A stretch of DNA of 64,000 nt from Vicugna vicugna (GCA_013265495.1 MU057989.1:387513-451512), one strand, 5' to 3'. Shown: positions 54,282 to 60,200, numbered from the stretch's first letter. The notes: generated by a model not told the origin, from the sequence alone. A program made the numbers and translations.

Positions 54282-57200
54282 ATGATGACAGTAGATCTGA
54301 AGGTGGCTGAGTACTTGAACCCTCAGATCAGTACTCTGTGGGAGACCAAGGGACCTGTGACAGAGCGCTCCAGTCAGCACAAGAAGTGTGTCCCACAAAC
54401 AGACAGCCTCAGTCCTGAGAGGTCTCACCTACACTTCCGAAACTTCCTGTATCATGAAGCAGCTGGACCCCGTGAGGCTGTTGACCGACTGCAGGAATTA
54501 TGCCATCAGTGGCTGAGGCCAGAGATTCATTCAAAAGAGCAGATCTTGGACCTGCTGGTGCTAGAACAGTTCCTGACCATTCTGCCCAGGGACACCCAGA
54601 CCCAGATAAAGAAGCACCATCTACAGAGTGTCGAGGAGGCTGTAGTTCTGGTAGAACACTTGCAGAGAGAATCTGGTGAAACAGGGAATGGGGTGAGAAA
54701 GATTCCTGGGTAAAATGGGGTGAAGGTGGATATATTGGGGTTGGGGTAGTTACATGAGAAATAAGATGAATTAGGTCACTGCTCTTTTGTTCCTTTAGGA
54801 CATCTAAGGCGGGTCCTAAAAGCACAGACCTGCAGCAATAGTCAGTCCTCCACCGGTTTCAGAGATCTTGGCAGAGACTTCTCTGGCTTCAGGGAAGAAG
54901 TTGCTTTTTGTGCTCTTTTGAGCCAGGGCGTGTTGAGGTTCATGATCCTAGTCTGGCCTTGCCAGGGAGATAGGTATTGAGTTCTTAGAAACAAACAAAA
55001 GGCAATAAGGAGTTGGAGAGGAAGGGACAGAGCCAAAAAAAGGAGGAATTCCTGGAGACCAAAGGAGAGTGAAGATAGTAAAGAAAAGGAGAAGCTACAT
55101 GACTAGGGGAAGATTGCCAAGGAAGAGAAAACGTAGAAAGAAAACGGGGAAAGAGAGATTTGGAAATCCCAACAGCAGCTGAGGAGTAGTGTCCTCTGTA
55201 CCATGGACCGGAGCCTCCACTGCCCTCCCTTCATGGTGGTTCCCTGACTCTGCTGCTGAGCAGGGATCCGGGGCATGCTCCTGGGCAGGTGGCAGCATAC
55301 CGGCTGGCTTCAGACCTGCTGTGCATACCGGGGCGGGGTGGGGGGGCACATTTTGTGTCAAAATCATTTGGAGAAAGGTTGGAGCCATGATTCTTTCCTC
55401 TTGCTTTTTTTCTCCATTTCATCCATATGGAAAATCATGTTGACAGGACAATTCCTTAAATCTTTTGAGAAAACTGGAAGACAGGAAACCACCAAGGCAG
55501 GGGTCTAAGTTGGGAGAGATAGCCTGTCAAGGCAGCATGAGAACAGGTGGCTGGTGTAACCCTGCTAGTGGTCTGAGCTGAGCTGTATGCAGAGGGTTGT
55601 GGGCTGCTGTCTTGGGGTACTGGCAGTAGCCACAGCTTTTTTCCTTTTATTCCAGTTTTCCCAGATTTGTGGCTAGTTCTTTGTGGAAAATTGGTGGCCC
55701 AGTATCTCTTTAAGTCTTTTTGTAATTTCCTTTATTGTCTCCCACCTCCTACAGTCTGTACTCTGCTTTTTCCTGCCTCTACCACCAACCCCCAAACAAA
55801 CATGAATGCTCTGGTAACAAGGATGGGGATTATTTCTAGGTTGCAGTCCATGAGCTGGGAGAGGAAGCAGTGTTCTTGGGAGAAACAGCAGAGGCCCCAG
55901 GCTTCAAGCTGAAGCCAGCAGAGTCGCAGCCACTGGGCATGTCCCAGAATGAAGAATTTTGGAATACACACCAGGGTCTACAGGAACCACTGAGCAGAAA
56001 TACTCACAAAGAAACTGAGCCCATATGTGAGAGGGGTAAGGAGCTTCATGTAATTTTCCTTCTCCTGGGAGCTGTGACAGTGATTTGTTAAGCCAGAATG
56101 TGTGAACACCTTCTGGGTACCCTGCCCTGTGGACCTACAAGTGCAGCCACATTAACAATTACGATGCCCCTCAGGTGGCGATAGAATAGATCACGTGGGT
56201 GAAGGTGCAGGTTGGCCTAAGGTACAGAAATCTCCAAACAACAGATTCCTGGTAATAACATCGTGAACTCAGTTTCTTAGAAAGGTCGGACCTGCTTCAT
56301 CCTCATAAAATACAGGAGTTGAGATTAGAAATGGGTTGTCAGTGGCAGGATGTGAAGAGAGTTGTGTACCAGGAAAAAAATAAAAAGTGATTAAAAAAAA
56401 AACCTATATCTCCTGCTGTACACTGGAGTCCCTGAGTATGTCATTTTCAAAAACATTTCATCTTTGCCTAACTGAACGGTTTATGTCATGAGAGGAAAAT
56501 AAAAGGAGTTTTTCCTTTATTAATTTTGCTTTTGAAAACTGGGGAACTGTTTTAAAGACTGGTAGATACTTGGTTCTTATTTACAATGAGATGTCCATTT
56601 TTGGGCACCACACACACTTGTAAAAGTGTCTCATCTCTCCTGAATGAATCGGGATCTTCAGTATTTTAGAAATGAGATTTGGACGTTCAAAGGCAAGTGA
56701 GAGAAATTTCCTCTGGCTCTTCCATCCACAGCTGTGCCTGCTCACCAGATCCTAGCCTCTCCTGAACAGACAAACACCAAAGACTGGACTGTGGCACCTG
56801 ATGTCTTCTTGCCTGAGTCCCAGGTGAGCTGTGCTTTCCAGCTTTTTAGGGCTGCCTTTCCCTGCTGCCCGTGATTCACACTGCCCAGCAGGTGCTCAGA
56901 GGTATTAGTCAAGGTGTTCCCCAGGACTTTGGGCACCTGTTTACTGATCTATTGCCTCCTTCCTTTCCGCTTAGATTTTAAAAAATCAAGAGGTGTTAAT
57001 TCCATTGTGCTTGGCCTACCATGCAGTTCATGGGCCAGATGGTTCAGCAACATGTATAGAGGCATATATTGAGCTGAAGCCCATTTTATTCTTTAGAACT
57101 TGTTGACATTTGAAGAAGTGGCCATGTATTTCTCCCAGGAAGAATGGGAATTACTGGATCCCACTCAGAAGGCCCTCTACAATGATGTAATGCAAGAAAA

Positions 57201-60200
57201 CTATGAGACTGTCATCTCTCTAGGTAAAGATTCTCCCCTTCCCTTTGCATAGGAATTGAGTAATCTTCATGTTCTTAGCTTACTGGGAATGCACCTGCCG
57301 TGAGAGGGTCTTTGTTCCAGTAGCTGTTTGGTTCTCAACTAGGTGGTGTGGGCAGGGAAAAGGTGTATCCAGATCACCAGGGACCTTTTTTCATGTGCAC
57401 ATACTCATTCTTTATTCTGAATCTTGATCCCTCCCTCTGTCTTTCCCTCCAGATTTCTCTTATGTTTCTCATTTTCATAAAGGACACCACCATTCACCCA
57501 ATATGTCAGGTCAGAAAACTTGTGGTCATCCTTTATACCAATCTTGTCATACCCTGCTAGTTCTAATGCAGTACTAGTCCTCTTGTCTCCAGCTTCACAG
57601 TGTAACCTGAGTCCAACCAAGTCTCAGCCTCCTGTGCTGTTAGCATTGTAGTGTAAGCCAGTGGCATCTCTAACAAGGGCCACCTCAGTACTTTTAACTG
57701 GCACTCCTGCCATCACTCCTCCCCTCCTACAATCTGTTTTCTACAAAACAGCCAGAGTCTTTTAAAAATGTGATCACATCATGACATTTCTTGCATCAAA
57801 GCCTTACTGTGACTTCACACATTGAGAATAAATCCAGACTCCTTACTGAGGTTCCCAGGACCCTTCTTTTTCTCGCCCCATCTCACCCCACTGCACTTAC
57901 CTCCTGCCACTCCTGCCCTGCTCAGTTCTGTCTAGCCACACTAGTCTTCTTGCTGTTGAACTTACTGATCTCATTTATACCTTTGCATTTCCTTTACCTG
58001 GCACACTGGACTCTGAGTACTGTATTTTCCAACACCTTTAATTTTTGTCCAACTAGAACTATTCATATCATGTAAGGAAAAAACCAGGATTTCCTTTTAT
58101 CAACTTCACTGGTGAAGACTGAGGAGTGTCAACTGAGGAACTTGTTGGAGGAGCTAGTGGACACTTGATTCTTATTTAAAATGAGAAAGCCACTTCTAGG
58201 TACCAGGTAACACTTGTGAAGATATCCCATCTCTACTGAAAGAATCAGGATCGTCTACAGTTTAGAAATGAGCCTAGAATAATCAAAGGCAGAAGGGAGA
58301 GAAATTTCCTCTGGCTGTTCCACCCACAGCTGTGCCTGCTTACCAGATCCTAGCCTCTCCTGAGCAGACAGACACCAAGGACTGGACTGTGGCACCTGAG
58401 CTCTTCTTGCCTGAGTCCCAGGTGAGCTGTGCTTCCCAGCTCTTCAGGGCTGCCTTTCCCTGCTGTGTGTGACCCATACTGCCCAGCAGATGCTCAGAGG
58501 CATGTAGGCCCAGATGCTCCCTTTGGGGAACTGGGCACCTCCCAGGGTATTTGCTGATCCATTGCTTCCTTCCTTTCTGTCTTCTCACTTTAAAAAAATG
58601 AACTGCTATGAATTCCTTTAGTGACTGGCCTACCATGCAGTTCATGGCAGAGAATGTAGGACCTCTTCTGTAATAGCAAGTACTGAGCCAAAACCCATTC
58701 TCCTCTTTAGAGCTTGTTAACATTTGAAGACGTGGCCATGCATTTTTCCCAGGAAGAATGGGAGTTACTGAATCCCATTCAGAACGCCCTCTATAATGAT
58801 GTAATGCAAGAAAACTATGAGACTGTCATCTCTCTAGGTAAAGCTTCTCCCCTTTGCATAGGAGTTGAGTAATCTGTCATGTTCTTAACTTACTGGAAAT
58901 GCACCTGCCTTGAGAGAGTCTTTGTTCCAGTAGCTGTTTGGTTCTCAACTAGGTGGTGTGGGCAGGAAAAAGGTGTATCCAGATCACCAAGGTCCTTTAT
59001 CCAAATACACATTACTTATCCTATATAGAATTGATGTCTTCTTCCCAACAAACTTGTCCTTACATCTCTCTCATCTCCATAAGAGGTGTCCCCACTCATC
59101 CAGTTGCTCAGAGCAAGAAACAGTCATCCTTTACCTCGATCTTCCCATAACACCCCCACGAAATCTAACACAATGCTCTTGGCTCCACCTTCACAGTATA
59201 GCTTGTGTAGTCTGATTGCATCTCAACCTCTTGTGCTGTTAGCATCCTGGCCGTAGCCAGCGCTGTCTCTGTCGAAGTCCACCTCAGTACTTTCTGACTG
59301 CCACTCCAAGCCACCACACTGGCTCTCCCAGTCTCTTTTCTGTGTGGCAGCCAGAGTTTTAAAAACTTGATCAGATCATGACTTTTTCTGTTTCACAACC
59401 TTGAGATAATTGCTCAAGAAGTTCAGAATATATCCAAATTCCTTACTGAGGTATGCAGAACCTTCTAAGATCTGGTTACTCCTCACCAACCTGCTGTTGT
59501 CTCTGGCCACTTGTGCCCTTGCTCAGTCCTCTTTATTTACACTGGTCATTTTGTTGTTTCAGGAACTTGCCTTGCTCATTTCTTCTTTCCCTTTCCCTCT
59601 ACCTGGCATACTTTTCAGCCACATGGCAAAACTCACTTTAGGGTTCTGTTCAGATACCACTTTCTCAAAGAGGCTTGTATAACCTTATCTAAAATAGCTT
59701 CACAGGAGCATATTTTTAAATGCTCTCTTACCCAGCTTTAGTTTTCTTCAAAACCTTGATCACTTCTTGACATTTTGTTTATTGATGTTTATTGTTTCAC
59801 TCTGCACTGGAAGATAGCTCCATGAGCTCAGGGGACTTGGCTTATTCAGCACAGTATCTCTAGCACATAGAGAGTGCCCAGAACACCATCACCACTCAGT
59901 ATAAATTTATTAAATGACTGGGTGATGAATACTTTCCATACTTCGTAATATGGTTTAGAGAAAGTCCATTAAGTGATTCTGGCCTGTTTCCTCCACTTGA
60001 ATGTGAACCAGTGAGCTATGGGAGTGGTAGAAATCTCTCCTGGTCATGTATCTGGTGCTTAAGAGCCAAGTTGAAAGTTGCTGTAATTATAATGTGAATC
60101 ACGTGTGTATCTGATGCTCATTCAACCCACTGACCTTCATTTTGGCTCCTTATGACTTGGTCTTATCCAGTACATAGCCTCCTAAAAGCTAATAGGACCA

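What the first reader, a model, noticed from the sequence alone, without database searches (positions are those of the whole stretch)
56415..59610. ZNF75A internal duplication creates two intact, in-frame KRAB-A modules
Seen: each copy has a 92-nt linker exon and a 127-nt KRAB-A exon (219 nt, phase 1 to phase 1), with all splice sites intact and no stops or indels. The exon copies differ at 16 of 219 nt (6 synonymous, 10 non-synonymous by manual count), while the introns show many indels. Copy A reads TFEEV; copy B has the canonical TFEDV. Inference: a SCAN-KRAB-KRAB protein (610 aa) or alternative KRAB isoforms (537 aa) with different KAP1/TRIM28 recruitment.
Basis: partly seen in the sequence, partly recalled or inferred. 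Interest (0 to 1): 0.72.

Follow-up and report, generated by a model that had tools for sequence, protein, structure and literature searches.

The report
Old duplicated KRAB module in ZNF75A
A camelid gene-regulator gene, ZNF75A, carries two intact copies of the exon pair for its silencing (KRAB) domain; many other mammals have the same pair, which is likely an old duplication kept alike by copy-to-copy overwriting, and the second copy is likely an optional, loosely constrained extra.

Summary
A 1.6-kb tandem duplication gives two in-frame linker+KRAB-A modules (16/219 differences: 6 synonymous, 10 not) and open frames of 610 and 537 aa. The reading needs changing. The duplication is not camelid-specific: two-module ZNF75A models are already annotated in bats, horses, carnivores, ruminants, whales, pigs, hedgehog, Old World monkeys, mouse lemur and tree shrew. 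Introns are 72-76% alike, but one purely intronic patch is 94% alike, and modules cluster by lineage rather than position, so gene conversion likely explains the exon likeness. Copy A looks like the working module: the alpaca RefSeq protein equals the A-only isoform, and 44 of 49 one-module proteins use A. Copy B drifts: 37 versus 11 KRAB-A changes, and dromedary B has lost a KAP1-contact tyrosine. TFEDV occurs in 1 of 37 B copies, so it is no conserved switch. Splicing of B in camelids is untested. Unequal double KRABs are known (ZFP568, ZNF274). The scan had no earlier ZNF75A note. Interest is low to moderate.

The parts
54282..54692 (+). ZNF75A first coding exon, SCAN domain
   Evidence: Pfam SCAN 135 bits; frame
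55840..56035 (+). exon 2; lies in a 414-bp tract (55686-56099) identical to the downstream paralogue
56415..58007 (+). duplication unit A
56732..56823 (+). linker exon, copy A (92 nt)
57097..57223 (+). KRAB-A exon, copy A (TFEEV); the module in the alpaca RefSeq protein
57224..57383 (+). intronic patch 94% identical to its copy-B counterpart (likely conversion tract)
   Evidence: 146/155 vs 421/586 in the rest of the intron
58003..59612 (+). duplication unit B
58330..58421 (+). linker exon, copy B (92 nt)
58711..58837 (+). KRAB-A exon, copy B (TFEDV); faster evolving
58838..58993 (+). copy-B side of the 94% intronic patch
60700..60807 (+). single, unduplicated exon at the KRAB-B position (108 nt); the name KRAB-B rests on position and recall
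60995..61674 (+). last exon, five C2H2 fingers and stop

Best explanation
ZNF75A holds two intact linker+KRAB-A exon pairs from a likely old tandem duplication; copy A likely supplies the main one-KRAB protein, while copy B is likely an optional, weakly constrained cassette that gene conversion from A keeps refreshing. Each pair is a 219-nt phase-1 module, so splicing can include none, one or both without a frameshift (shown for the frame; inclusion inferred from database models). Conversion acts in patches around the exons, between A and B and also between ZNF75A and a four-finger paralogue 47.5 kb downstream (inferred from mosaic identity). Between conversions B drifts, and the alpaca-type D of TFEDV is likely one such drift change. 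The two-module isoform would add little repression beyond copy A, as in mouse ZFP568 (inferred by analogy, untested).
For: Age: unconverted A-B introns are 72-76% alike, the same as A against the ZNF75D-like gene on another contig (69-72%). Two-module proteins occur in Laurasiatheria and in primates and tree shrew. The four-finger paralogue also has two modules in horse, rhino, carnivores and pangolin. Conversion: intronic patch 146/155 vs 421/586 (Fisher p 1e-10, borders chosen after looking) and vs 113/142 to the paralogue. On the 74-row tree the A/B label changes 18 times (at least 8 forced by supported branches; 0 of 200 bootstrap trees give one change). Hedgehog A equals B, and horse and mouse lemur differ at 1 of 72 residues. 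Exon 2 is identical or nearly so between gene and paralogue here (196/196 nt) and in cattle, sheep and deer (0-1 residues), while their finger exons differ at 25-27 of 84. A is main: alpaca XP_006204367.2 equals the A-only isoform with 0 differences; 44 A, 4 B and 1 tie among 49 one-module proteins. B is relaxed: order-level KRAB-A changes are 11 A-only vs 37 B-only (p 2e-4), against 41 vs 43 in the linker. Window vs dromedary differs at 6/72 in B against 7/537 in the A-only protein (p 0.002). Tyr29 is Cys in dromedary and Pteropus B, and orangutan's B-type module lacks Trp18 (P0203).
Against: No RNA junction data were obtained, so the inclusion levels of A and B in camelids are unknown. The isoform evidence is database gene models of unknown support. 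The two dromedary two-module models are GenBank predictions without fingers. B is still intact in 36 other hand-picked proteins. Its KRAB-A changes less per residue than its linker (37/42 vs 43/30) and tends to spare the 12 KAP1-critical positions (6 of 37, p 0.06), which suggests some selection on B. Directly, B vs A in camelids (6/72 vs 1/72) is not significant (p 0.12). Protein databases show only intact copies, so losses are under-counted. The tree has only 72 columns. Intron homology in other species could not be examined.
Confidence: 0.62

Rival explanations
1. Both modules are kept by selection: the two-KRAB isoform is a regulated product that tunes KAP1/TRIM28 recruitment, with 0, 1 or 2 KRAB-A boxes set by splicing, and conversion only helps keep B working.
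For: Models with 0, 1 and 2 modules all exist (7, 68 and 37 of 120 proteins). The two-module form is isoform X1 in several bats, pig, warthog, fox, macaque and tree shrew. The key positions V9, F13, E17, W18, L21 and N36 are invariant in 37 of 37 B modules. ZFP568's two KRABs cooperate in TRIM28 binding (PMC5033580, section 8).
Against: B changes 3 times as often as A in KRAB-A, with Tyr29 or Trp18 lost in three lineages. In ZFP568, KRAB number hardly changed repression. Human ZNF75A is not among the seven high-confidence TRIM28-binding SCAN proteins (bioRxiv 2025.03.03.638093, passage). The human models seen have one module.
Confidence: 0.25
2. In camelids copy B is a dead exon pair, never spliced in, and intact only because the last conversion from A was recent enough.
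For: The alpaca and dromedary RefSeq proteins seen are A-only. No protein identical to this K_B exon was among the 120 listed hits of 169 (best 88%). Intactness arises in 6-25% of neutral simulations.
Against: The listed hits are cluster representatives only. Splice sites of B are canonical and near-identical to those of A. B is also open in dromedary, and two-module models are common in sister groups.
Confidence: 0.1
3. The module was duplicated independently in many mammal lineages, which would also make copies cluster by lineage.
For: Lineage-wise clustering on the tree. No two-module protein among the listed Afrotheria, Glires, colugo or mole proteins.
Against: In this genome the introns are about 27% diverged while camelid-specific residues sit in both copies, which a recent duplication cannot give. 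The same 73-residue unit recurs in the same place in all groups.
Confidence: 0.03

Closest known systems
Annotated two-module ZNF75A isoforms (e.g. Macaca nemestrina XP_070940098.1, 610 aa; Equus XP_008507166.1, 609 aa; Myotis davidii XP_015415600.1, 610 aa)
   Same: Same SCAN, linker-KRAB-A twice, KRAB-B, five-finger layout and length.
   Different: The camelid RefSeq proteins seen carry copy A only; the D of TFEDV is peculiar to this copy B.
Mouse ZFP568, two KRAB motifs (PMC5033580; passages and section 8 read)
   Same: Two KRAB motifs in one protein; the first does the repression and the second is dispensable but assists TRIM28 binding.
   Different: The passages read say nothing of conversion or cassette splicing. 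ZNF75A copies are about 90% alike, and neither was assayed here.
ZNF274 (PMC2999557, passages) and ZFP28 (bioRxiv 2020.09.09.288324, passage)
   Same: Two KRAB domains of unequal activity (stronger and weaker KAP1 binding; repressor and activator).
   Different: Their domains are clearly diverged in sequence or effect; no homogenisation is described in the passages seen.
Long-lasting gene conversion in BMP8A/B, DDX19A/B, TUBG1/2 (PMC2720389; abstract and outline only)
   Same: Old eutherian duplicates, paralogues more alike within than between species, with converted intron segments.
   Different: Those are gene pairs. Here conversion is within one gene between exon modules, and also with a neighbouring paralogue.

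Membership tests
ZNF75A orthologue (SCAN-KRAB-C2H2) | SCAN, KRAB-A and five C2H2 fingers in order | tested here: met
   Pfam
ZNF75A orthologue (SCAN-KRAB-C2H2) | Best sequence match to named ZNF75A proteins | tested here: met
   Identical to alpaca XP_006204367.2; 7 differences from dromedary XP_010990852.1
ZNF75A orthologue (SCAN-KRAB-C2H2) | Synteny with MEFV, ZNF263 and TIGD7 | tested here: inconclusive
   ORFs that look like these genes lie upstream; their names and the human order are recalled, not searched
KAP1-recruiting KRAB-A box | Hydrophobic and polar contact residues V9, F13, E17, W18, L21, Y29, V32, M33, E35, N36 (ZNF93 numbering) | tested here: met
   Present in both copies; mapped by spacing from PMC9753469 passages, not by alignment to ZNF93
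KAP1-recruiting KRAB-A box | Asp8 (salt bridge to KAP1 Arg304) and Ile11 | tested here: inconclusive
   Copy B has D8, copy A has E8, both have M11; E8 is in 72 of 73 scored modules; the effect of these conservative changes is unknown
KAP1-recruiting KRAB-A box | Measured KAP1 binding and repression | not testable with these tools
   Human ZNF75D binds KAP1 (PMC6745500 supplement); ZNF75A had no row there and is not in the seven-protein list
Concerted evolution by gene conversion | Copies more alike within than between species | tested here: met
   Mean 6.7 differences within species vs 8.5 (A-A) and 11.0 (B-B) between species; 18 label changes on the tree
Concerted evolution by gene conversion | High-identity tract that includes intron, against diverged flanks | tested here: met
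   146/155 vs 421/586; 414-bp identical tract with the paralogue
Concerted evolution by gene conversion | One old duplication with the same breakpoints in distant species | not testable with these tools
   Only proteins were available for other mammals
Alternatively spliced duplicated exon cassette | Both inclusion and skipping seen in transcripts | tested here: inconclusive
   Gene models only; no junction reads obtained

The most novel reading that the evidence does not exclude
ZNF75A is a splice-tunable repressor whose KRAB dose (0, 1 or 2 boxes) has been kept since the boreoeutherian ancestor by conversion plus selection. In South American camelids copy B regained the KAP1 salt-bridge aspartate, so including B would switch a weak recruiter into a strong one at the 3' ends of zinc-finger genes.
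Probability: 0.12. Interest if true: 0.6.

Novelty: new member of a known kind. Interest (0 to 1): 0.3.

Why it matters
It is a clean case of an internal KRAB-exon duplication whose copies look young in every lineage but are likely old, a trap for dating duplicates and for reading exon conservation as selection. It also warns that annotated ZNF75A isoforms with 3-4 KRABs are likely read-through chimeras with the neighbouring paralogue. If B inclusion were regulated, it would offer a natural test of whether KRAB number or the D/E at position 8 tunes KAP1 recruitment. I found no paper on the duplication: searches (listings only, open-licence library; 30 of 53 ZNF75A papers listed).

Tried and rejected
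RNA check: 24 runs were listed, 8 of them on record as RNA and holding part of the stretch, but no reads could be laid, so they are no evidence. Complex prediction of copy A with copy B gave no answer (score 0.02); it is not evidence either way. One search used two off-by-one exon ends, corrected. I first took the downstream paralogue for a pseudogene because its SCAN region has a stop and a frameshift. Rejected: an early donor gives an intact 381-aa, four-finger protein 85% identical to cattle and dolphin proteins. An assembly artefact for the 414-bp identical tract is unlikely, because cattle, sheep, deer, whales and pangolin show the same exon-2 homogenisation; horse, rhino and carnivores do not (7-17 differences). 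An assembly artefact for the tandem itself is rejected (74% identity; dromedary has both copies). PMC3912051, PMC4592553, PMC3731817 and bioRxiv 2020.09.01.277178 (passages) added nothing on duplicated KRABs. The supplements of the two bioRxiv papers (Table S1 of 2025.03.03.638093; the KRAB screen of 2020.09.09.288324) were not seen and may hold ZNF75A KRAB measurements.

Full report
Observation. Self-BLAST of the window finds one tandem pair, 56420-58007 and 58003-59612, 74.2% identical over 1648 columns with 39 gap openings. Each unit holds a 92-nt linker exon and a 127-nt KRAB-A exon with AG/GT ends. The copies differ at 16 of 219 nt, 6 synonymous and 10 not; A reads TFEEV and B reads TFEDV. 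Joined to the SCAN exon, exon 2, the single KRAB-B-position exon and the finger exon, they give 610 aa with both modules and 537 aa with one. Both K exons pass the Pfam KRAB cut-off.

Identity. The A-only 537-aa product is identical to alpaca XP_006204367.2 and differs at 7 residues from dromedary ZNF75A XP_010990852.1. The window is therefore a South American camelid ZNF75A locus. The genome holds two more close relatives (8 matches, 4 of them strong). One is a paralogue 47.5 kb downstream on the same contig with one module; it gives an intact 381-aa SCAN-less four-finger protein 85% identical to cattle and dolphin proteins. The other is a ZNF75D-like gene on contig C8699 with one module reading TFEDV (the name is inferred).

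Distribution. Of the 120 listed proteins (229 found), 68 have one module, 37 two, 6 three, 2 four and 7 none; these mix isoforms and both genes. All 8 with three or four modules end in the paralogue's four-finger tail, so they are likely read-through models. I hand-picked 36 two-module proteins, one per species, from 264 held. They span camelids, whales, ruminants, pigs, horse, rhino, bats, carnivores, pangolins, hedgehog, Old World monkeys, mouse lemur and tree shrew. None of 70 further cluster members had two modules; these covered elephants, rabbits, rodents, colugos, lemurs, monkeys, apes and mole. Those clusters were seeded by one-module proteins, so this is weak. An orangutan model uses a B-type module lacking Trp18 (P0203), so B persists, damaged, in at least one ape. 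One origin in the boreoeutherian ancestor is the simplest reading (inference; its age of roughly 90-100 My is recalled).

Why the exons look young. Outside the exons A and B are 72-76% alike, no closer than A is to the ZNF75D-like gene (69-72%). The exons are 92-93% alike, but so is a purely intronic patch after the K exon: 146/155 against 421/586 in the rest of that intron (p 1e-10, borders chosen after looking) and against 113/142 to the paralogue. Across 37 species the two modules differ by a mean of 6.7 residues within a species, against 8.5 (A-A) and 11.0 (B-B) between species. On the tree the A/B label changes 18 times; shuffled labels average 24.7, and 0 of 200 bootstrap trees give one change. 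With only 72 columns many forks are open. Lineage-specific residues sit in both copies (11 in hedgehog, 5 in warthog, 2 in camelids; none in 6 of 37 species). The same process links the gene to its paralogue: a 414-bp identical tract over exon 2 beside 81% flanks. Exon-2 peptides are identical or nearly so in cattle, sheep, deer, whales and pangolin, but not in horse, rhino or carnivores. Patchy gene conversion is thus the likely cause of exon likeness, which is then no proof of selection on both copies. A-B dN/dS is 0.42 on few changes.

Which copy works. One-module proteins match copy A in 44 of 49 hand-picked cases, B in 4, with 1 tie. Against the column majority, order-level KRAB-A changes are 11 A-only, 37 B-only and 18 in both (p 2e-4), while the linker is even at 41 and 43. 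B is further from the majority in 10 of 20 groups and nearer in 1. Between this genome and dromedary, B differs at 6 of 72 residues and A at 1 (p 0.12); the whole A-only protein differs at 7 of 537 (p 0.002 against B). Mapped by spacing onto the ZNF93-KAP1 contact residues (PMC9753469, passages), both copies here keep ten of twelve key residues. Position 8 is E in 36 of 36 scored A modules and 36 of 37 B modules, so the D is peculiar to this lineage. Dromedary B has E there, and Cys for Tyr29. Against pure decay: B-only changes tend to spare the key positions (6 of 37, p 0.06), and six key positions are invariant in all 37 B modules. Neutral simulation leaves the unit intact in 6-25% of 20,000 runs under four rate settings that I chose.

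Mechanism. Shown: two symmetric, skippable modules; mosaic identity; asymmetric change. Inferred: old origin, recurrent conversion, A as main product, B as optional cassette with partial constraint. Untested: inclusion in camelid RNA (searches gave no data) and KAP1 binding. Human ZNF75A and ZNF75D are reported to bind the 3' ends of zinc-finger genes (PMC10547255, passage). ZNF75D binds KAP1 (PMC6745500 supplement), while ZNF75A is not among seven high-confidence TRIM28-binding SCAN proteins (bioRxiv 2025.03.03.638093, passage). The human 296-aa form begins inside the KRAB-A box, which may confound such tests (my inference). In mouse ZFP568 the second KRAB is dispensable for repression and doubling KRAB1 added little (PMC5033580, section 8), so a large effect of B is not the default expectation.

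Verdict. The feature is real and already present in database gene models of many mammals. It is of a known kind: unequal double KRABs (ZFP568, ZNF274, ZFP28) and long-lasting conversion (PMC2720389, abstract). I found no paper describing it for ZNF75A (search listings 21, 22, 30, 43, 44, 54). Interest 0.3.

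Noticed in passing
G000:C1192:489359-494900 (L012-L013): Intact SCAN-less, four-finger ZNF75A paralogue (381 aa). Its single module is closer to copy A upstream and to copy B at its far end, as if one module was lost by recombination between A and B; horse, rhino, carnivore and pangolin paralogues keep two.
   Followed up: partly
window 54693-56099: Intron 1 is 95.5% identical to the paralogue and a 414-bp tract over exon 2 is 100% identical, next to 81% flanks: likely recent conversion between the genes.
   Followed up: yes
G000:C8699:67600-76700 (L016-L017, minus strand): ZNF75D-like gene with one module reading TFEDV; its KRAB-B-position exon carries an in-frame stop.
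   Followed up: partly
proteins P0087, P0109, P0113-P0115, P0117, P0119, P0120: Database ZNF75A isoforms with 3-4 KRAB modules end in the paralogue's tail; likely read-through or chimeric models.
   Followed up: partly
window 47456-48961, minus strand: A 502-aa transposase-derived ORF (TIGD7-like, name recalled) changes character near its end, and another frame continues with plausible protein: possibly a frameshift.
   Followed up: partly
window 26543-26703 and 26962-27123: 162-bp inverted repeat, 95% identical, 258 bp apart; possibly a transposon remnant.
   Followed up: no
window 60261-60418: Short interspersed repeat in the intron after copy B, matching 25913-26057 and 18158-18287; camelid SINE by recall.
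   Followed up: no
window 58709-58712: The K_B acceptor is followed at once by a second AG two bases on, which copy A lacks; its use would shift the frame.
   Followed up: no
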